From a virus (Duplodnaviria > Caudoviricetes), in the IMG/VR virus record IMGVR_UViG_3300022843_000014, positions 1 to 57,160 of that record: a DNA stretch of 57,160 nucleotides. One strand, given 5' to 3'. The translations under genes were made by a program, and so were the position numbers. The notes beneath the pieces are model-generated. The model worked only from the letters and a program-made list of their open reading frames with translations, was not told the origin of the DNA and searched no databases. Position 1 is the stretch's first letter; each line of letters begins with the position of its first letter. This document shows, piece by piece, positions 7,805 to 57,160 of this stretch.

Positions 7805-9246
7805 AAACACTACAGGAACAATATAATTTAATCCAAGAAGGCAAAGGCCGTAAAGATTTATTTTTAAAGGAGGCAAAGTCTACTTATCCTAATTTAATAT
7901 CAAACATAACTTCTTATAATGATGCTGAAAAAATATTAAAAAGCAAAAGCAAAATTAACGAAAATATAGGTGGTATTATTACTTTAAAACCTATATCCCA
8001 GTTAACATCCGAGGATTTTAACCCTAACAAACAATCTTGGGAATATAAATATGAAAATTTTGTTAACGAAGAGAGAGCAAAATCATTAAAACCTGCCATC
8101 AATAAGGATAAAAAGATTAATACTGAAGAACAGGATGAAAAAATCAAAGCGGATATAAAAAAAGTATCAGACCCTGTAGAAAATATTGATAAGAGTAATT
8201 ATGATTACTCACCCAAAGAGGATAATATTAATAATGTTAACGCCCAGGAAATGATGAACGGTGTATATTTTGAACTTAAAGAAGATCCTTCTTTATCTTT
8301 AGAAAAGGCTCAAGAAAAAGTAATTAAAAACCTAGCAAAAGACCCACTAACTTACATAAAGAATGGGCAATTTGGGGTAGGTATAGGTTATACAGAACCA
8401 GAAGTATACGAAAATTCAGGCAAAACCTACGGGGGTAGCGGATATAGTGATAAATTAAAAAAAACAGATACTAAAATGAGACCATTAAAAGAATCAACTT
8501 ACAAGAGACTAATTAAAGAAGGATTAGGAGGAGTAGTAACATCAGGTAATTCAAATTCCTATGCCTCACAGTCCGGGAGAGAAATTAGAAAAATGATGGC
8601 TGAAGATTATAATCAGCAAGAAGTAGGATCCCAATATCATAGTTCTTTATATACCGAATCCAATGAAGAAAAACCACTTCCTATGGATGAAAAGGCAAAA
8701 CCAGACTTCCTAGATTTAGATGGAGATGGTGACAAGGGTGAAACTATGAAAAAAGCAGCATCTGATAAAAAACAAAAACCTAAAAAAGATTCAATAGATG
8801 CTAAATTGGCAGAAATTGGAGCCGAGGCCGAAGCAGTTAAAATGGAAGCTCAATTAGAGTATTTAACTAATCATATTAACGAAAAGCAAGATAGATTGAC
8901 TGGTATTAATGAAGATGAAAATATGTTGGATTTAATGGATAAATCTAAATTGAAAGAAATGGCTAGGGACATTAAGCTTCTAGAAAAGAAGAAATCACAA
9001 ATGGAGAAAATCTACGAAAAAACATGTGGTAAAAGTTACTCCCCAACTAAAATGGTAGATGAAGATGTAGATGGTGGATTTGAAAGTGAGGATGAAAAAG
9101 AAAATTATTATTTAAATTTAGATAGTGTTGATGAAATGGATGCCGTAAGTTGGAATGATAAAAACAACCCAACACGTGGAGCTGCAGGTGAAAGAGATCC
9201 TAAAAAAGTAGGTACTTCAACAGGAGAATATTCTGTAAACAAATAA
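7801..9246 (+). CDS. Putative prohead core/internal protein
   Basis: N-terminus MKTLQEQYNLIQE resembles the T4 internal-protein targeting leader; highly charged; directly upstream of the protease. Confidence 0.55.
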   Translation: MKTLQEQYNLIQEGKGRKDLFLKEAKSTYPNLISNITSYNDAEKILKSKSKINENIGGIITLKPISQLTSEDFNPNKQSWEYKYENFVNEERAKSLKPAINKDKKINTEEQDEKIKADIKKVSDPVENIDKSNYDYSPKEDNINNVNAQEMMNGVYFELKEDPSLSLEKAQEKVIKNLAKDPLTYIKNGQFGVGIGYTEPEVYENSGKTYGGSGYSDKLKKTDTKMRPLKESTYKRLIKEGLGGVVTSGNSNSYASQSGREIRKMMAEDYNQQEVGSQYHSSLYTESNEEKPLPMDEKAKPDFLDLDGDGDKGETMKKAASDKKQKPKKDSIDAKLAEIGAEAEAVKMEAQLEYLTNHINEKQDRLTGINEDENMLDLMDKSKLKEMARDIKLLEKKKSQMEKIYEKTCGKSYSPTKMVDEDVDGGFESEDEKENYYLNLDSVDEMDAVSWNDKNNPTRGAAGERDPKKVGTSTGEYSVNK

Positions 9247-52088: not shown

Positions 52089-52795
52089 TGATAAAACTAA
52101 TAGATCTCTTAGAAAATAAAATCCTAGTCCCTAGACGCTCTCCTGAGGAACGCTCTAAGAATTTTTTAATTGCTACTCAAAAGAAAATCCAACAATACAT
52201 GAAGGATGGAAGTAAAGGTGATCTTGATTTAAGAGATACCCCAATAACCACCCTCCCCCAAGATTTAACAGTAGGTGGTTATCTTTATTTAGGAAATACC
52301 AAAATAACCTCATTACCACAAGGTTTAACAGTAGGAGGTAATCTTAATTTATTTGGGACTAAAATAACCACTCTACCTCAAGGTTTAACAGTAGGAGGTA
52401 ATCTTAATTTAAGATATACCCCACTAACCTCTCTACCTCAAGGTTTAAAAGTAGGAGGTTATCTTAATTTATTTGGGACTAGAATAACCTCCCTACCCCA
52501 AGGTTTAACAGTAGGAGGTGATCTTAATTTAGAAAATACCCCAATAACCTCCCTACCTCAAGGTTTAGAAGTAGGAAAGGATCTTTATTTAAGAGATACC
52601 AAAATAACCTCTCTACCTCAGGGTTTAAAAGTAGGAGGTGATCTTAATCTAGCTAATATCCCAATAACTTCTCTACCCAAAGGTTTAACAGTAGGAGGTT
52701 CTCTTGATTTAGAAGATACCCCCATCTCTAAAAAATATACTAAAGAACAAATTAAACAAATGGTGCCTGGAGTAAAAGGTGAAGTTTATATGTGA
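52088..52795 (+). CDS. LRR protein 3 (8 full 20-aa repeats)
   Basis: 60-bp tandem repeat; MIKLIDLLE leader. Confidence 0.9.
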   Translation: MIKLIDLLENKILVPRRSPEERSKNFLIATQKKIQQYMKDGSKGDLDLRDTPITTLPQDLTVGGYLYLGNTKITSLPQGLTVGGNLNLFGTKITTLPQGLTVGGNLNLRYTPLTSLPQGLKVGGYLNLFGTRITSLPQGLTVGGDLNLENTPITSLPQGLEVGKDLYLRDTKITSLPQGLKVGGDLNLANIPITSLPKGLTVGGSLDLEDTPISKKYTKEQIKQMVPGVKGEVYM

Positions 52796-52874
52796 AAACA
52801 CAATGATAAAACTAATAGAAAACTTGGCGATATTACTTCTCCTTCATATATTTATAACTGTATAAAAATAACTA

Positions 52875-53024
52875 ATGACAACTATTCAAAGCATATTTAC
52901 AAATTTACTCTCCTCGATGCAGGTCCATAATATATGGACGCTGTGTGGTGATGTGATTTGTGGTTTGGTGTTTAATAGTGAATATAAGCAACCGAGAAAC
53001 ATTTCCGGGTTTATTATGAGTTGA
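52875..53024 (+). CDS. Putative attenuator leader peptide (49 aa)
   Basis: MTTIQSIFTNLLSSMQVHNIWTLCGDVICGLVFNSEYKQPRNISGFIMS; its 3' end overlaps the antiterminator arm. Confidence 0.6.
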   Translation: MTTIQSIFTNLLSSMQVHNIWTLCGDVICGLVFNSEYKQPRNISGFIMS

Positions 53025-53080
53025 TAATTTAAAAACATATCATTTATATAAACCCGGATCTAAAAAATTCGGGTTTTTTT
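53004..53080 (+). terminator. Terminator with competing antiterminator
   Basis: 53050-53058 pairs with 53068-53076 followed by Ts; 53004-53014 is the exact reverse complement of 53048-53058. Confidence 0.8.
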
Positions 53081-53151
53081 GTTAAAGTAAGTGTAAAAAA
53101 ACTAGGAGATGTGAAATATAGTTCGTATATTTACGTATTAAAATTAGAGAT

Positions 53152-53289
53152 ATGGAAAAATTTAAAGACACTAAAGTATTTAAAATGTTAGCTGAAAGAT
53201 GGAAAGGTAGAGACATGGAAACATATTTTATCGAAAAAAACAAAGCCTATCATGAAAAACTAAAAATTGAAGTTAAAAACTTCACATAA
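53152..53289 (+). CDS. Small early protein flanked by identical promoter repeats
   Basis: 45 aa, MEKFKDTKVF...; TAGGAGATGTGAAATATAGTTCGTATATTTACGT on both sides. Confidence 0.6.
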   Translation: MEKFKDTKVFKMLAERWKGRDMETYFIEKNKAYHEKLKIEVKNFT

Positions 53290-53341
53290 AAAATTAGGAG
53301 ATGTGAAATATAGTTCGTATATTTACGTTATAAGAAATTAA

Positions 53342-53363
53342 AGTTCATTGACATATTGGATAA
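53342..53363 (+). promoter_or_regulatory. boxA-like element before tRNA block 1
   Basis: AGTTCATTGACATATTGGATAA, identical at 55116-55137; lies between promoter and first tRNA. Confidence 0.6.
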
Positions 53364-53369
53364 TATTAA

Positions 53370-53457
53370 GGAAGGTGAAGCAGTGACATGGAGTCGCGAC
53401 TAGTCTTGAAAACTAGGTTTCGTTAATTCGGATGGGGTTCGAGTCCTCCTCCTTCCT
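53370..53457 (+). tRNA. tRNA-Ser(TGA)
   Basis: Anticodon arm CTAGT-CTTGAAA-ACTAG, long variable arm, TTCGAG T-loop. Confidence 0.8.
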
Positions 53458-53544
53458 CAAAAGATTCTACCCTGATCTGAAAGTTGGCCTAACGGCCCAG
53501 CTGATATGCTTGGTAGAGGACATAGGAGTCCTGCTTCTATATTT

Positions 53545-53616
53545 TAGCCTGTGGTATAACGGTTATTACATTTGACTTTGACTCAAATAATGGGAGTTCG
53601 ATTCTCTCCAGGCTAA
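53545..53616 (+). tRNA. tRNA-Gln(TTG)
   Basis: TAGCCTG/CAGGCTA acceptor stem; TTTGA-CTTTGAC-TCAAA. Confidence 0.9.
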
Positions 53617-53760
53617 CAATAATCAGAATAAAAGTAAATAAATTGAGATTAGTATTTATAGCAAACGGAAACTTTGCAATAGCAGCCTAGCAATAGGCTT
53701 TAAATCCTTAAACAAGGTTTATAGATTTAACGTACCGCCTGAAACGTAATTCAGGCAAAT

Positions 53761-53833
53761 GGCTCTATGATGTAACTGAATAGCATAGAAATCTTCTAAA
53801 TTTCTTGTATGGGTTTGAATCCCATTAGAGTCT
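53761..53833 (+). tRNA. tRNA-Arg(TCT)
   Basis: GGCTCTA/TAGAGTC; GAAAT-CTTCTAA-ATTTC. Confidence 0.85.
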
Positions 53834-53840
53834 CAAATAA

Positions 53841-53915
53841 GCAGGTGAGGTTAAGGTAACCGGTTGCTCTCCAAAAGCAATGATACACGAATAGGTTCGA
53901 TTCCTATCACCTGTG
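53841..53915 (+). tRNA. tRNA-Trp(CCA)
   Basis: GCAGGTG/CACCTGT; TTGCT-CTCCAAA-AGCAA; short D arm and enlarged variable region. Confidence 0.8.
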
Positions 53916-53940
53916 CAAAAATTAATATAATTATTAAATC

Positions 53941-54450
53941 ATGAAAAATCGTTATGACAAAACCTTAGTAATTGACTCTAGTTATATTGCTAGGAGTATT
54001 ATCACCACAGAAAGAGCATTTGTAGTATCATATAAGGGAAATGCAGACATAATAGAGGAATACCCAGAAACATTTGGTGTTGTAAACCCAAATCTAACAA
54101 TTTTTAAACCTTCTATTATTAGAGTACACACTTATGTAAAAATGAATTTTCAAAAAGTACCTCTAACACGTGAAAATATATTTAAAAGAGATGGGTATTT
54201 GTGTGTATATTGTGGTCACGATAAACGCAAGGATCTAACGATAGATCACGTTATACCTCAATCTAAAGGTGGGCCTAATACATGGGATAATTTAGTATCC
54301 GCTTGTATAAAATGTAATAATGAAAAAGCAAGTCTAACATTAAAGGAATATGGAAAATCTATTCCAAAACCAAAAAGACCCCATTATCTAATGTTATTAA
54401 AAAAAACATTATTTATACCGGATGAATGGAAACTTTATTTATTAATGTAG
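53941..54450 (+). CDS. HNH endonuclease (McrA-like)
   Basis: RDGYLCVYCG...TIDHVIPQSKGG..TWDNLVSACIKCN. Confidence 0.9.
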   Translation: MKNRYDKTLVIDSSYIARSIITTERAFVVSYKGNADIIEEYPETFGVVNPNLTIFKPSIIRVHTYVKMNFQKVPLTRENIFKRDGYLCVYCGHDKRKDLTIDHVIPQSKGGPNTWDNLVSACIKCNNEKASLTLKEYGKSIPKPKRPHYLMLLKKTLFIPDEWKLYLLM

Positions 54451-54456
54451 AAAATT

Positions 54457-54530
54457 GAGCAAGATGTTTATGGTTGGACAGTTAGTTTGCAAAACTAATC
54501 TTTTAGTGGGTTCGATTCCCACCTTGCTCT
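54457..54530 (+). tRNA. tRNA-Cys(GCA)
   Basis: GAGCAAG/CTTGCTC, U73; TTAGT-TTGCAAA-ACTAA. Confidence 0.85.
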
Positions 54531-54618
54531 CAAAAATATAAGTAAAAAACAAATACAAAAAAACTAGGTTACCCGGAATATAGTTCGTATATTTACACCT
54601 AATAAAAAAATAAAAGTT

Positions 54619-55053
54619 ATGAAAGAATATAAAGTAGAAGTTACAAAAAATAGTACAGAATGGTACAACATGGAAGGTAGACGTCATAGAGAAGATGGAC
54701 CTGCTATAGAGCTTGCAAACGGAGATAAATATTATTACATTAATGGTAAACGTCATAGAGAGGATGGTCCTGCTACTGAGTGGGCAAGTGGATATAAAGC
54801 TTACTACATTAATGGTAAACGTCATAGAGTGGATGGGCCTGCTGTAGAGTGGGAAAATGAATATAAGTGTTACTACATTAATGATCAACGTCATAGAGAA
54901 GATGGACCTGCTATAGAATGGGTAAATGGAGATAAGTGTTACTTCATTAATGGTGAAGAATTAACCGAAGAAGAATTTAATAGTAGAACTAAAACCTGTG
55001 AAGGTAAGGTAGTAGAGATTGACGGAGTAAAGTATAAACTATCTAAACTATAA
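54619..55053 (+). CDS. HREDGPA-repeat protein C, flanked by promoter repeats
   Basis: 144 aa like protein A with near-identical C-terminal part; promoter copies at 54565 and 55066. Confidence 0.85.
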   Translation: MKEYKVEVTKNSTEWYNMEGRRHREDGPAIELANGDKYYYINGKRHREDGPATEWASGYKAYYINGKRHRVDGPAVEWENEYKCYYINDQRHREDGPAIEWVNGDKCYFINGEELTEEEFNSRTKTCEGKVVEIDGVKYKLSKL

Positions 55054-55115
55054 TCATATAAAGACTAGGCTACCCGGAATATAGTTCGTATATTTACGGA
55101 ATAGAAAATAATAAT

Positions 55116-55137
55116 AGTTCATTGACATATTGGATAA
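55116..55137 (+). promoter_or_regulatory. boxA-like element before tRNA block 2
   Basis: Identical to 53342-53363. Confidence 0.6.
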
Positions 55138-55146
55138 GATTAAATT

Positions 55147-55219
55147 GCTCATGTGGTGGAATGGTATACACGGCTGTTTTAGAAGCAGTATTTTGCAGGT
55201 TCGAATCCTGCCATGAGTA
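55147..55219 (+). tRNA. tRNA-Leu(TAG), short variable loop
   Basis: GCTCATG/CATGAGT, A73; GCTGT-TTTAGAA-GCAGT. Confidence 0.8.
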
Positions 55220-55228
55220 CAAAAAACT

Positions 55229-55466
55229 GTTCGAGTACTAATTATGACTTATCACTCTAATTAGGAAGTAGTGGACAAATATATACTAAAGGTCATTAAT
55301 CAATAAACTAACCAGAATGGTTCTGATACTGAACTTGAGATTAAAGCGGTTGGATTCCGAAGTGTTAACAGGTTTAAAAGGGTAAGCTAGTTACTGTTAA
55401 TGCAAAAAATACAAGTTAGACGTTCGAAGGAGAACTTAAAAGGTATTCAAATCACCATTCTAACTT
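55229..55466 (+). ncRNA. Putative structured ncRNA(s) in tRNA spacer
   Basis: Nested stems 55229-37/55327-34, 55244-50/55290-96, 55362-71/55394-403, 55413-20/55459-66. Confidence 0.5.
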
Positions 55467-55470
55467 AATT

Positions 55471-55542
55471 GCCTCTAAAGCATAAATGGTAATGTGCCCG
55501 GTTTGTGCCCGGAGGAACAGGGTTCGATTCCTTGTAGAGGCT
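55471..55542 (+). tRNA. tRNA-Thr(TGT), atypical loop
   Basis: GCCTCTA/TAGAGGC, U73; CCGG-TTTGTGC-CCGG. Confidence 0.7.
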
Positions 55543-55625
55543 CTAAAAGTAATTCAACCTCGCTTAGCGATAAACTAACTCTAAAAACGTTTTACCAATG
55601 AGGGAGGTCAATGTTTACTTTTAAT

Positions 55626-55698
55626 GCGAGTGTAGCTCAATTGGCAGAGTGCTATCTTTCCACGTTAGAAGTTGGGGGTTCGAACCCCCCCACTCGCT
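55626..55698 (+). tRNA. tRNA-Gly(TCC)
   Basis: GCGAGTG/CACTCGC, U73; loop TTTCCAC. Confidence 0.88.
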
Positions 55699-55758
55699 CT
55701 TTTTTACATTTTCGGGCATTTTTATAAATTTTTGTATATGTATGATAAACAATAACAT

Positions 55759-56445
55759 ATGAAAAATATAAAATGGGAAAATGATTTATCTGGAATACTA
55801 TTAGGAAATATAATAATTAATAGTAATTCGAGTTTAAGAAGGTGGATATTAAAGAAAGAAATATTCCCCTATAAATGTAATAAATGTAAGATTGAAAAGT
55901 GGAATAGTGAGATAGTAATTTTAGAATTAGAACACATTGATGGGGATAGAAAAAACAACAAAAAAGAAAATTTAGAATTATTATGTCCCAATTGCCATTC
56001 TCAAACCAGTACATATAAAGGAAAAAATATTAAAAAAACAACACAAATTATAGACGATTCTGACAAGATCATAGACTTATTTAAAAAAGGATATAATATT
56101 AATCAAATATTAAGTACATTAAGTTGGTCAGGAGGTAAGAATTATAAAATAGTATATAAAATATTAAAAGACAAGGGAATTAACCTTCCCACAAAACATG
56201 ATATGTTTTTATTAAAAAAAGATAAGAACCAACAAAAAATAGAAAAAAAATTAAGTGTTTTACAAAATCGAATTAATATTGTTAAAACCTGTAATATTAA
56301 TTTCAACCAACATGGGTGGGGGATAAAATTATCCAAACTTATAAATTTAACTCCTTCAGCCACCCTAAAATTTATGAAAAGAGAATTACCTGAGTTTAGT
56401 AAAAAATGTTGGCAACATTCAGATAATTTAAATATACAATATTAA
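55759..56445 (+). CDS. HNH homing endonuclease in tRNA array
   Basis: CNKC...LELEHIDGDRKNN..ENLELLCPNCHSQT. Confidence 0.88.
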   Translation: MKNIKWENDLSGILLGNIIINSNSSLRRWILKKEIFPYKCNKCKIEKWNSEIVILELEHIDGDRKNNKKENLELLCPNCHSQTSTYKGKNIKKTTQIIDDSDKIIDLFKKGYNINQILSTLSWSGGKNYKIVYKILKDKGINLPTKHDMFLLKKDKNQQKIEKKLSVLQNRINIVKTCNINFNQHGWGIKLSKLINLTPSATLKFMKRELPEFSKKCWQHSDNLNIQY

Positions 56446-56453
56446 AGCAAGCG

Positions 56454-56572
56454 GTTACTTGACTCCTAATATGTACAGTAACAGTCGCCTAGATTTTAGG
56501 AAGTCTGAGGGCGGTACGTCATTAATGCTCAATTTAATGGTAGGTACGTATCAATATTATGTTAAAACCTAC
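56454..56572 (+). ncRNA. Putative kissing-loop structured RNA
   Basis: Hairpin loops TCCTAA (56464-69) and TTAGGA (56496-501) are complementary; two more hairpins follow. Confidence 0.5.
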
Positions 56573-56577
56573 ATTCT

Positions 56578-56649
56578 GCTCCTGTCGACAACTGGCTAAG
56601 TCACTACCCTTTCACGGTAGAGTAGAGGGATCGATACCCTCCAGGAGTA
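56578..56649 (+). tRNA. tRNA-Glu(TTC)
   Basis: GCTCCTG/CAGGAGT; CTACC-CTTTCAC-GGTAG. Confidence 0.85.
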
Positions 56650-56654
56650 CAATT

Positions 56655-56727
56655 GGGGATATGGTGAAATTGGCTATCATAGTAGATTTGCATTCTGCTG
56701 TTCCGAGTTCGAACCTCGGTATCTCCA
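56655..56727 (+). tRNA. tRNA-Ala(TGC)
   Basis: G3-U70 pair, A73; loop TTTGCAT. Confidence 0.88.
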
Positions 56728-56801
56728 CAATTATGGGATATCTACCTTAGGTAGGTGTTCTGTCAAGGTTTTTAAGGTTGAACCCGTAATCAACCTTAAC
56801 C

Positions 56802-56876
56802 GGTCTATTAGTGAACTGGCTATCATGCTACCCTGTCACGGTAGAGTAGAGGGATCGAAACCCTCATAGACCGCCA
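56802..56876 (+). tRNA. tRNA-Asp(GTC)
   Basis: GGTCTAT/ATAGACC, G73, encoded CCA; loop CTGTCAC. Confidence 0.88.
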
Positions 56877-56879
56877 AAT

Positions 56880-56950
56880 TGCGTTAAGGTGTAAAGGTTG
56901 CATGGGACTCTCATAAGGTCTACGGGGTGGTTCGAATCCACATTACGCAA
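56880..56950 (+). tRNA. tRNA-Met(CAT), degenerate/initiator-like
   Basis: Loop CTCATAA and TTCGAAT T-loop; several stem mismatches. Confidence 0.6.
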
Positions 56951-57011
56951 CTAAATAGTTTTATAGGTCGTTCTGTCCTTGAGTTCTATTTCAAAACTCT
57001 AAAAAAGGCAA

Positions 57012-57087
57012 GGTCCCTTAGCTCAGTCTGGTAAGTAGCAACTCGCTCATAACGAGAAGGTCACAGGTTCAAATCCTGTAGGGACCA
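57012..57087 (+). tRNA. tRNA(CAT), probably Ile2 (lysidine-type) rather than Met
   Basis: GGTCCCT/AGGGACC acceptor stem and overall resemblance to bacterial tRNA-Ile2; loop CTCATAA. Confidence 0.8.
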
Positions 57088-57160
57088 CAAAAATATTTAT
57101 CCAATATACTTCTAATTATTTATTATATTTCCTTGACCCCTGCTTGGGTACCATACTTAT

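What the first reader, a model, noticed from the sequence alone, without database searches (positions are those of the whole stretch)
52824..53080. Candidate translation-sensing attenuator (codon-diverse leader peptide) upstream of the phage tRNA array
Seen: a promoter (early motif at 52824 overlapping the late motif at 52849) is followed by a 49-codon ORF (52875-53024) missed by the ORF track. It uses 32 different codons and 19 of 20 amino acids, and is rich in G/C-ending codons that look rare in this AT-rich genome (CTC, TCG, CAG, GTC, ACG, CTG, GTG, TTG, CCG, GGG; four different Leu and four different Ser codons). Its last codons (TCCGGGTTTAT, 53004-14) are the perfect 11-nt complement of the 5' arm (53048-58) of an intrinsic terminator. 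Known: this is the geometry of trp/his-type ribosome-mediated attenuators. Inference: a ribosome reaching the stop codon masks the antiterminator and transcription stops. Stalling from depletion or cleavage of almost any host tRNA would allow read-through into the tRNA array, i.e. an inducible tRNA-rescue switch against tRNA-targeting defences. Caveat: two early promoters (53103, 53295) lie downstream of the terminator, so the switch may control only late or supplementary transcription.
Basis: partly seen in the sequence, partly recalled or inferred. Interest (0 to 1): 0.9.

Follow-up and report, generated by a model that had tools for sequence, protein, structure and literature searches.

The report
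Translated attenuator before phage tRNA genes
A tiny gene that spells out nearly every amino acid once, wired to a switchable transcription stop signal, sits in front of the tRNA genes of this T4-like phage and its relatives, and probably lets the phage make more tRNA when translation runs slowly.

Summary
There is a promoter-like box (52824-52856) and a 49-codon ORF (52875-53024). An 11-nt perfect complement (53004-14 / 53048-58) extends to a -20.3 kcal/mol hairpin that competes with a -11.1 kcal/mol terminator (53050-53080).

It is not a one-off. The same ORF-switch-terminator module heads the tRNA array in 36 of 36 related contigs with enough flank, once per genome. The frame stays open through in-frame indels. 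The ORF's last codons carry a sequence complementary to the terminator's 5' arm in at least seven different sequence solutions. One of these is a triple co-change of ORF end, 5' arm and 3' arm.

Most telling, 58 of 69 distinct family peptides (44-56 aa) hold all 20 amino acids, against 1.2% of like-sized windows in this phage's genes. This is kept by relocation of single His, Arg, Trp, Cys, Pro and Tyr residues.

Best reading (0.6): a ribosome-dependent attenuator gauges decoding of every amino acid and lets transcription run into the tRNA genes when translation lags.

Unproven: translation, termination, and the weight of read-through given the promoters downstream. The anti-defence purpose is untested. 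This scan noted the same family before on other DNA (e1-5761757). I found no published account.

The parts
52824..52856 (+). Promoter-like site P1 of the leader. TTG at 52824-26, then TATATTTA at 52849-56, resembling the Bacteroidota sigma-A -7 box TAnnTTTG. The inferred start is about 52861, giving a 5' UTR of roughly 14 nt that is A-rich with no Shine-Dalgarno.
   Evidence: TTGGCG-17-TATATT, 9 of 12. The same TTG..TATATTTA arrangement lies 20-25 nt before the ATG in the relatives. The -7 box consensus and its position at -12 to -5 come from passages of PMC9723704. Promoter activity is inferred.
52875..53024 (+). Leader ORF of 49 codons (MTTIQSIFTNLLSSMQVHNIWTLCGDVICGLVFNSEYKQPRNISGFIMS*). 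It uses 19 amino acids and 32 codons, with many rare G/C-ending codons.
   Evidence: The family frame is open in 33 of 33 unique versions, while the +1 and +2 frames carry 1-7 stops. The indels seen in the alignments are multiples of three.
53004..53014 (+). Segment 1, the antiterminator 5' strand (TCCGGGTTTAT), inside codons 44-47. A ribosome with the stop codon in its A site would cover about 53007-53036.
53004..53058 (+). Antiterminator hairpin (11 + 6 + 4 bp, 11-nt loop), -20.3 kcal/mol. It contains the stop codon (53022-24) in its 5' arm and the terminator's 5' arm in its 3' arm.
53048..53058 (+). Segment 2 (ATAAACCCGGA). It is shared between the antiterminator (3' strand) and the terminator (5' arm).
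53050..53080 (+). Intrinsic terminator. Stem AAACCCGGAU / AUUCGGGUUU (53050-53076), loop of 7, and a T7 run at 53074-53080; -11.1 kcal/mol.
   Evidence: In the family, stem pairs co-vary: 221:245 is CG in 18 and UA in 13; 218:248 is AU in 17 and GC in 10.
53098..53135 (+). First downstream promoter copy (P2), which bypasses the terminator.
   Evidence: exact 17-mer at 53116-53132.
53152..53289 (+). 45-codon ORF lying between two copies of the promoter repeat. It is present in the window group and in the L052/L068 group, and absent in L004 and the main group.
53290..53327 (+). Second downstream promoter copy (P3).
   Evidence: exact 17-mer at 53308-53324.
53344..53363 (+). 20-nt box TTCATTGACATATTGGATAA in the tRNA leader. 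A second copy lies at 55118-55137.
   Evidence: There are exact copies in 65 viral-contig stretches, usually directly 5' of a tRNA.
53370..53456 (+). Degenerate tRNA-Ser-like first gene of the array. Relatives have tRNA-Ser(tga) here.
   Evidence: tRNA-Sec model, 35.2 bits against a gathering score of 47. ARAGORN does not call it. Relatives.
53545..57088 (+). tRNA array: Gln, Arg, Trp, Leu, Thr, Gly, Glu, Ala, Asp, Met. It is interrupted by HNH and MORN-like genes and runs off the contig end.

Best explanation
This is a ribosome-dependent (leader-peptide type) transcription attenuator at the head of the phage tRNA array.

Proposed mechanism:
1. Transcription starts at a host-type promoter (about 52861). 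A 49-codon leader is translated close behind the polymerase.
2. As soon as the terminator's 5' arm (53048-58) is made, it can pair with the leader's codons 44-47 (53004-14). This long hairpin locks the arm away, so polymerase reads through towards the tRNA genes.
3. If the leading ribosome has already reached the end of the leader, it covers 53007-53036 and unwinds that strand. The 5' arm stays free, pairs with 53068-76, and transcription stops at the T run.
4. The family leader carries one of nearly every amino acid. A delay in decoding any of them would therefore shift the balance to read-through. The element would act as a general gauge of decoding capacity that tops up tRNA transcription.

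Shown here: the sequence elements, their conservation, synteny, co-variation, in-frame evolution and all-amino-acid composition.

Inferred: promoter use, translation, termination, coupling, and the direction and size of the effect.
For: 1. Geometry in the window.
- The antiterminator is -20.3 kcal/mol against -11.1 for the terminator.
- Without a ribosome, or with one stalled at codon 22 or 35, the predicted structure is the antiterminator.
- With positions 53007-53036 or 52986-53015 masked, the predicted structure is the terminator.

2. Synteny.
- All 36 of 36 family loci with at least 700 nt downstream have a tRNA array beginning 116-524 nt after the stop, usually Ser(tga)-Gln-Pro.
- There is one copy per genome in 4 of 4 large contigs.

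3. Coding.
- The frame is open in 33 of 33 unique versions, while the other two sense frames carry 1-7 stops.
- Indels in the alignments are multiples of three.
- In L166 an upstream 2-nt difference shifts the frame. The nucleotides AUUUGGG are kept and the ORF ends 5 nt later.

4. Alternative pairing in the family.
- In folds of the nascent RNA cut before the 3' arm, the core of the 5' arm pairs with the last 25 nt of the ORF. The probability is at least 0.95 in 25 of 33 unique sequences.
- The last 27-nt window of the ORF is the arm's best partner in 31 of 41.
- The mean duplex energy with a sequence's own arm is -10.81. With permuted arms it is -9.57 +/- 0.21, and 0 of 2000 permutations are as low.
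- In the fixed register, pair 169:221 is GC in 12, AU in 8, GU in 4 and other in 7.
- Distinct solutions:
  - CCGAG / CUCGG
  - CCGGG / CCCGG
  - GAUCUGGG / CCCGGAUC
  - GAUUUGGG / CCCAAAUC, together with 3' arm GAUUUGGG (L013, L038, L166)
  - GAUCGGAGU / ACUCGGAUC (L046)
  - GGUACC / GGUACC (L016, L019, L051, L053, L074 and others)
  - UCCGGGUUUAU / AUAAACCCGGA (the window)

5. Composition.
- 47 of 52 unique ORFs use all 20 amino acids and 5 use 19.
- Among 69 distinct peptides, 58 have 20, 10 have 19 and 1 has 18. Shuffling within alignment columns gives a mean of 26.6 with all 20 (maximum 36), and 0 of 1000 shuffles reach 58.
- His, Cys, Trp, Pro, Arg and Tyr average 1.01-1.17 copies, and their single copy sits at different columns in different members.
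- Only 1.2% of 46-residue windows of this phage's long ORFs hold all 20.

6. The arrays of two near-complete relatives encode 18 and 20 tRNAs.

7. Host group. The nearest cultured capsid is from a Flavobacterium phage, at 54.7% identity. Passages of PMC9723704 report strong clues for leader-peptide attenuation in Flavobacterium psychrophilum.
Against: - Promoter copies lie between the terminator and the tRNAs: two in the window and one in most relatives. The array does not depend on read-through.
- In most relatives the terminator (-10 to -16 kcal/mol) is the full-length minimum-energy structure (26 of 33). The antiterminator core there is only 5-8 bp.
- The predicted pre-terminator pairing is weak in some members: 0.5-0.8 in 6 of 33, and 0.21 and 0.09 in L010 and L043. 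L028 and L034 have weak duplexes.
- The tree of the ORF body shows mosaicism, so part of the co-variation may have travelled by recombination of the whole 3' module. The counts are not independent events.
- The peptide has conserved blocks, and median dN/dS is 0.61-0.64. That would also fit a small protein with a function of its own.
- The leader has 44-56 codons, longer than classical leaders, and has no run of one regulatory codon.
- Nothing here shows translation, termination or transcription-translation coupling in the (unknown) host.
Confidence: 0.6

Rival explanations
1. This is an ordinary small early gene with its own promoter and terminator. The about 46-aa product acts in trans, for example on a host or tRNA-related target. 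The pairing of the ORF end with the terminator arm affects only this transcript's own 3'-end formation or stability, and does not control the tRNA genes.
For: - The family has conserved peptide blocks, and 22 of 24 HMM hits are stand-alone proteins of 44-54 aa.
- dN/dS is below 1 in about 90% of pairs.
- Promoters follow the terminator, so the tRNAs have their own drive.
Against: - There is no Pfam or PHROG family.
- The AlphaFold model is a single low-confidence helix (pLDDT 60.8, pTM 0.26).
- It does not explain why the ORF end co-varies with the terminator's 5' arm, in several registers and even in a shifted frame.
- It does not explain why each rare amino acid is kept at about one copy by relocation.
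- It does not explain the strict position at the head of the tRNA array.
Confidence: 0.2
2. This is a nascent-peptide (arrest-peptide) switch. The conserved peptide acts inside the ribosome tunnel, as TnaC, SecM or Erm leaders do. It responds to a specific ligand or factor rather than to general decoding, and sets how long the ribosome sits near the stop codon and so which hairpin forms.
For: - Conserved W, SLCGD and YNNEPKQ blocks lie upstream of the stop.
- The stop codon lies inside the antiterminator arm.
Against: - The last 5-10 residues, nearest the peptidyl-transferase centre at termination, are the most variable part. They follow RNA pairing, not peptide sequence.
- The all-20-amino-acid rule is not expected of an arrest peptide.
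- Under this logic a long dwell at the stop would favour termination, not induction.
Confidence: 0.08
3. This is a non-coding small RNA with its own promoter and terminator. The open frame would be incidental.
For: - The window transcript 52860-53082 folds with z = -5.2, and L004's with z = -4.4.
- Rare G/C-ending codons are conserved at the nucleotide level.
- Gene callers often skipped the ORF: there was no hit in the word-index protein search.
Against: - The frame is open in all 33 unique versions, with in-frame indels, while other frames are closed.
- Synonymous variation occurs at several conserved Gly, Val and Ala codons.
- The ORF bodies of five main-group members are no more structured than shuffles, with z from +0.6 to -1.2.
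- No Rfam family reaches its gathering score.
- The antisense frame is broken in many relatives.
Confidence: 0.05

Closest known systems
Leader-peptide attenuators of amino-acid operons (trpL, hisL, leuL, thrL, pheL, and the multivalent ilvGMEDA leader). Textbook knowledge, recalled.
   Same: - A promoter-proximal short translated ORF.
- An intrinsic terminator downstream, and an antiterminator that shares the terminator's 5' arm.
- A ribosome that finishes the leader favours termination, while a lagging ribosome favours read-through.
- The stop-to-T-run distance is about 55-68 nt.
   Different: - It precedes tRNA genes, not biosynthetic genes, and lies in a phage.
- It has three segments rather than four.
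- The leader is long (44-56 codons).
- It has no run of one regulatory codon. Instead it carries about one of each of the 20 amino acids.
- Promoters lie between the terminator and the regulated genes.
- It is not a sequence member of the Rfam leader families: Thr_leader scores 26.9 bits against a gathering score of 55, and Trp_leader 14.6 against 41.
Leader-ORF attenuators that respond to translation inhibitors, such as mef(E)/mel of Streptococcus pneumoniae (PMC4335068; search listing and start of abstract only). Term-seq surveys of such elements are recalled, not read here.
   Same: The leader ORF senses ribosome progress in general rather than one amino acid. Stalling opens a terminator by an alternative pairing.
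   Different: Those elements control resistance genes and respond to drug-bound ribosomes. No amino-acid-complete leader is described for them, as far as I recall.
The silent tRNA operon (trn) of Anabaena PCC 7120, induced by translational stress (PMC8421152; PMC10272220).
   Same: An accessory tRNA array whose transcription rises when translation is impaired. This is the same physiological logic as proposed here.
   Different: The control is by a protein repressor, TrcR (abstract of PMC10272220). The main text of PMC8421152 contains no occurrence of 'leader peptide', 'attenuat' or 'terminator'. The system is cellular, not phage.
pyrBI / pyrE attenuators of enterobacteria (recalled).
   Same: They read out how closely the ribosome follows RNA polymerase.
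   Different: The logic is opposite: a close ribosome prevents the terminator. They have no separate antiterminator strand inside the ORF.

Membership tests
Ribosome-mediated (leader-peptide) transcription attenuator | A short ORF directly behind a promoter, kept as a reading frame | tested here: met
   The ATG lies about 14 nt after the inferred start. The frame is open in 33 of 33 unique versions with in-frame indels, while the other frames are closed. Translation itself is not shown.
Ribosome-mediated (leader-peptide) transcription attenuator | An intrinsic terminator between the leader ORF and the downstream genes | tested here: met
   The window has a stem at 53050-53076 plus T7. A terminator is found in 41 of 42 unique viral-contig versions, with L018 the exception. 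The stem co-varies.
Ribosome-mediated (leader-peptide) transcription attenuator | A mutually exclusive antiterminator that uses the terminator's 5' arm, supported by co-variation | tested here: met
   There are seven sequence solutions, including a triple co-change. Caveat: recombination weakens the independence of these events.
Ribosome-mediated (leader-peptide) transcription attenuator | A ribosome at the end of the leader occludes the antiterminator strand but not the terminator | tested here: met
   This was tested by geometry and constrained folding only. Segment 1 lies 1-17 nt before the stop. The 5' arm starts 29-39 nt after the stop.
Ribosome-mediated (leader-peptide) transcription attenuator | A cluster of regulatory codons for the amino acid being sensed | tested here: not met
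   There is no run of one codon. Instead all 20 amino acids are present in 58 of 69 peptides, with the rare ones at about one copy each.
Ribosome-mediated (leader-peptide) transcription attenuator | Downstream genes depend on read-through, with no promoter in between | tested here: not met
   Promoter repeats lie at 53098-53135 and 53290-53327. A similar box follows the terminator in most relatives.
Ribosome-mediated (leader-peptide) transcription attenuator | Read-through rises when charged tRNA is short | not testable with these tools
   This needs reporter assays, Term-seq or in vitro assays.
Rfam leader families (Thr_leader RF00506, Trp_leader RF00513, L20_leader RF00558) | Score at or above the family's gathering threshold | tested here: not met
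   Scores against gathering thresholds are 26.9 against 55, 14.6 against 41, and 14.6 against 58.7. The matches cover mainly the terminator.
Arrest peptides (TnaC, SecM, Erm leaders) | A conserved peptide motif next to the stall site | tested here: not met
   The last 5-10 residues before the stop are the most variable part: GGTEV, TKTGI, DTDLG, GKTGV, NISGFIMS and TFGMI, among others.
Known protein families (Pfam-A, PHROGs) | A significant profile match | tested here: not met
   17 members were scanned. The best E-values were 0.08 (Pfam) and 0.024 (PHROGs), each in a single member.

The most novel reading that the evidence does not exclude
The element is a universal decoding gauge. The phage keeps a roughly 46-codon test track with one of every amino acid, several of them as rare NCG codons that its own U34 tRNAs would have to read by wobble. 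A shortage or cleavage of any tRNA would delay the ribosome and switch the terminator off. Such shortage could come from starvation, from a mismatch between host tRNAs and the AT-rich phage's codons, or from an anticodon-nuclease defence. Extra transcription would then pour into the near-complete phage tRNA array. This would be an inducible tRNA-rescue circuit, conserved in a widespread clade of aquatic T4-like Bacteroidota phages.
Probability: 0.2. Interest if true: 0.9.

Novelty: new variant of a known kind. Interest (0 to 1): 0.75.

Why it matters
Why phages carry tRNA arrays, and how they are expressed, has been debated for decades. Recent work links phage tRNAs to escape from tRNA-cleaving defences. 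I saw this only in search listings and abstract starts: PMC10264068, PMC11464382 and PMC11555353.

A conserved leader that samples all amino acids, coupled to a terminator switch, would give these arrays a feedback control tied to the state of translation. It would extend the trp-type attenuation principle from one amino acid to the whole genetic code.

It is directly testable with a small reporter. It would also provide a compact, natural sensor of global decoding speed.

I found no published description in five literature searches. Those searches cover only the held open-access library.

Tried and rejected
Searches that found nothing:
- blastn of 52700-53560, and of a main-group element, against 50,697 GenBank phages gave no match.
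- tblastn of a family peptide gave only an E = 6 hit. The family is therefore not seen in cultured phages, at that sensitivity.
- The word-index protein search found nothing.
- The ESM Atlas feature search gave no usable hit.
- Pfam and PHROGs gave nothing significant.

The more distant HMM representatives (P0013, P0017, P0018, P0022 and others) could not be placed on DNA, and their terminators remain unexamined.

Readings considered and set aside:
- Chance origin of the 11-nt complement: rejected because of family conservation.
- A terminator for a minus-strand gene: rejected because no T run follows either hairpin on the minus strand (read).
- Antisense ORF 52886-53038: rejected because the stop-free run reaches 45 codons or more in only 17 of 42 relatives, and falls to 25-33 codons in several.
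- A conserved helix inside the ORF (alignment columns 70-80 with 136-148, UCGGAUUCGUU / AACGAACCGA): 85-98% of cells pair but the helix hardly varies. It is not in most minimum-energy folds. It is left open, and may or may not explain the conserved TCG, TCG and CCG codons.
- The consensus terminator scan as such is not enriched: 4 sites against 5.3 +/- 2.3 in shuffles.

RNA evidence:
- Only Logan contigs were on offer. Three RNA runs cover just the tRNA-Ser-like piece.
- One 738-nt contig of a relative, in run X24 (depth 169), runs from before the ORF across the terminator region into tRNA-Ser and tRNA-Gln.
- This is compatible with read-through. It could equally be DNA in the library or joined transcripts, so it is not used as evidence.

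Other points:
- The AlphaFold model has low confidence and was not searched further.
- Supplements are closed. Table S7 and SI Appendix D9 of PMC9723704, which list the candidate leader-peptide attenuators in Flavobacterium psychrophilum, could bear on how usual such elements are in the host group. I did not see them.
Full report
**The observation**

The window is a 57,160-base IMG/VR viral contig, about 35% complete by CheckV. It comes from a T4-like myovirus: gp23 capsid, gp20 portal, T4-type terminase and sheath are present. Its nearest cultured capsid is Flavobacterium phage vB_FspM_immuto, at 54.7% identity.

At the stated coordinates there is a 49-codon ORF, 52875-53024. It is preceded by a promoter-like site, TTGGCG-17-TATATT at 52824-52852. 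That site includes TATATTTA at 52849-56, which resembles the Bacteroidota sigma-A -7 box TAnnTTTG. The box sits at -12 to -5 in Flavobacterium psychrophilum (passages of PMC9723704).

TCCGGGTTTAT (53004-14) is the exact complement of ATAAACCCGGA (53048-58). The pairing continues inward to a 21-bp hairpin of -20.3 kcal/mol. The terminator is a stem at 53050-53076 followed by T7; on its own it is worth -11.1 kcal/mol.

The codon claims are right and unusual for this phage, judged against 5000 gene windows:
- 32 codons and 19 amino acids;
- CAI of 0.477 against 0.714, with 0 of 5000 windows as low;
- rare codons at 26.5% against 8.3%.

**Relatives**

- The peptide finds six viral contigs, at 98% and 75% identity, each upstream of a tRNA array.
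- The 20-nt box at 53344-63 gave 65 viral-contig stretches.
- In 38 distinct contexts the same terminator appears upstream. It reads (A)ACCCGGAUC, an A-rich loop, then GAUUCGGGU and a U run, or a co-varying GACUCGGAUC..GAUUCGAGUC. A homologous ORF precedes it.
- A pattern built on the peptide block YNNEPKQ is blind to what lies downstream. It added more members from viral contigs and from metagenome contigs. It also gave chance matches inside unrelated larger ORFs, which I dropped.
- A profile search of 1.84 billion representatives found 24 hits, of which 22 are stand-alone proteins of 44-54 aa.
- All 36 of 36 loci with at least 700 nt of downstream sequence have tRNAs starting 116-524 nt after the stop, mostly Ser(tga)-Gln-Pro.
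- Each of four large contigs has exactly one copy.

**Is the ORF coding?**

- The frame is open in all 33 unique versions of the first set. The other two sense frames carry 1-7 stops.
- The indels in the alignments are multiples of three.
- Several conserved Gly, Val and Ala codons vary synonymously.
- Median pairwise dN/dS is 0.61-0.64.
- There is no Pfam or PHROG match.
- The AlphaFold model is one low-confidence helix, with pLDDT 60.8.
- The ORF bodies of five main-group members fold no better than shuffles, z from +0.6 to -1.2. The window's own ORF gives z = -2.4.

An RNA-only gene is therefore unlikely.

**The switch**

I folded each nascent RNA cut just before the terminator's 3' arm. 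The core of the 5' arm pairs with the ORF's last 25 nt as follows:
- probability at least 0.95 in 25 of 33 unique sequences;
- probability 0.5-0.8 in 6;
- 0.21 in L010 and 0.09 in L043.

In the full-length minimum-energy fold, the terminator is complete in 26 of 33. The antiterminator wins in 3 (the window group and L030). The remaining 4 are mixed.

The ORF's final 27-nt window is the arm's best partner in 31 of 41. Own-arm duplexes average -10.81 kcal/mol against -9.57 +/- 0.21 for permuted arms, and 0 of 2000 permutations are as low. In one fixed register, pair 169:221 is GC in 12, AU in 8, GU in 4 and unpaired in 7. The unpaired rows are mostly members that pair in another register.

The clearest case concerns members whose terminator changed from CCCGGAUC/GAUUCGGG to CCCAAAUC/GAUUUGGG. 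In these the ORF end also changed, from GAUCUGGG to GAUUUGGG (L013, L038). In L166 the same nucleotides are read in another frame, giving the peptide ..TFGMI. The C-terminal residues therefore follow the RNA, not the peptide.

A tree of the ORF body shows mosaicism, for example L056. Part of the co-variation may have moved by recombination of the whole 3' module, so the counts are not independent events.

One relative, L018, has lost the 3' arm and the downstream promoter. Its ORF runs straight on towards the array.

**Ribosome geometry**

The complementary stretch ends 1-7 nt before the stop, and its GC core lies up to 17 nt before it in the window. The 5' arm begins 29-39 nt after the stop. 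Constrained folds of the window's transcript give these results:
- no ribosome, or one stalled at codon 22 or 35: the antiterminator forms;
- positions 53007-53036 (stop in the A site) or 52986-53015 masked: the terminator forms.

The footprint size is an assumption from general knowledge.

**Composition**

A note of this scan on another genome (e1-5761757) prompted me to test amino-acid coverage.
- 47 of 52 unique ORFs use all 20 amino acids and 5 use 19.
- Among 69 distinct peptides, with N-terminal extensions trimmed and HMM representatives added, 58 have 20, 10 have 19 and 1 has 18. Met is often supplied only by the start codon.
- Shuffling residues within alignment columns gives on average 26.6 peptides with all 20 (maximum 36), and 0 of 1000 shuffles reach 58.
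- His, Cys, Trp, Pro, Arg and Tyr average 1.01-1.17 copies. Their single copy lies at different columns in different members; His, for example, lies at six columns.
- In this phage's own long ORFs, 1.2% of 46-residue windows and 1.9% of 49-residue windows hold all 20, with a start Met granted.

The column shuffle ignores relatedness, so it overstates significance. Relocation at several columns nevertheless argues for selection on 'one of each'.

Two near-complete relatives encode 18 and 20 tRNAs in the array, all with U34 or G34 anticodons apart from CAT and ACG. The leader's conserved TCG, CCG, GCG and ACG codons would therefore be read by wobble or by host tRNAs. That last point is an inference.

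**Verdict**

The best-supported reading is a ribosome-dependent attenuator that samples decoding of all amino acids and stands at the head of the tRNA array (confidence 0.6).

It works like the trp/his class, but fails two of that class's defining features: there is no regulatory codon run, and promoters lie between the terminator and the targets. It is not a member of any Rfam leader family. I therefore class it as a new variant of a known kind.

In print, the nearest logic I found is the Anabaena trn operon, which is induced by translational stress through the repressor TrcR. For this I read the abstract of PMC10272220. PMC8421152 has no occurrence of the attenuation terms in its main text.

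Five searches gave no account of a leader-peptide attenuator before tRNA genes. The scan's own notebook holds several similar AI findings on other phages. These are not independent evidence.

Noticed in passing
window 53344-53363 and 55118-55137: The 20-nt box TTCATTGACATATTGGATAA lies between a promoter copy and the first tRNA of both tRNA blocks. Exact copies occur in 65 viral-contig stretches, nearly always directly 5' of a tRNA, mostly Ser(tga). It could be a conserved tRNA-precursor leader, a processing signal or an antitermination signal. Its function is unknown.
   Followed up: partly
window 53370-53456: The first gene of the array is a degenerate tRNA-Ser-like sequence. ARAGORN does not call it, and the Rfam tRNA-Sec model gives 35.2 bits against a gathering score of 47. 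Relatives have a regular tRNA-Ser(tga) at this place. RNA-library contigs of three runs match this piece at 95-99%.
   Followed up: partly
L018 8196-8319, and similar stretches in L013, L021, L024, L031, L044, L048, L051, L056 and L071: A roughly 125-nt element with two T-arm-like motifs lies between the leader module and the 20-nt box in several relatives. It gives a weak tmRNA match: 18.3 bits against a gathering score of 47, E = 2e-5.
   Followed up: partly
L018 about 8119-8200: This is a natural variant in which the terminator's 3' arm and the following promoter are missing. The leader ORF runs on into the tRNA-like element and the array.
   Followed up: no
family alignment A3, columns 70-80 and 136-148 (codons WSDSL and NNEPK): The rare codons TCG, TCG, CCG and AAC are kept at the nucleotide level in most members. 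They can form a 10-bp helix that hardly varies. It is not clear whether this reflects an RNA helix, such as a pause hairpin, or selection for slow codons.
   Followed up: partly
window 52992-52996 with 53068-53072: In the ribosome-free fold, CCGAG (codons Pro-Arg) pairs with UUCGG of the terminator's 3' arm, outside the antiterminator hairpin. It may be the ancestral segment 1 of the main group, kept as a second lock.
   Followed up: no
window 53152-53289: A 45-codon ORF (MEKFKDTKVF...) is boxed between two identical promoter copies. It is present in the window group and in the L052/L068 group, but absent from L004 and the main group.
   Followed up: no
run X24, laid on window 52863-53623: A 738-nt contig of an RNA library (depth 169) comes from a relative with 22 other letters and 7 gaps over its 190-nt ORF piece. 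It spans the leader ORF, the terminator region, tRNA-Ser and tRNA-Gln. It may reflect read-through transcripts, or DNA in the library.
   Followed up: partly
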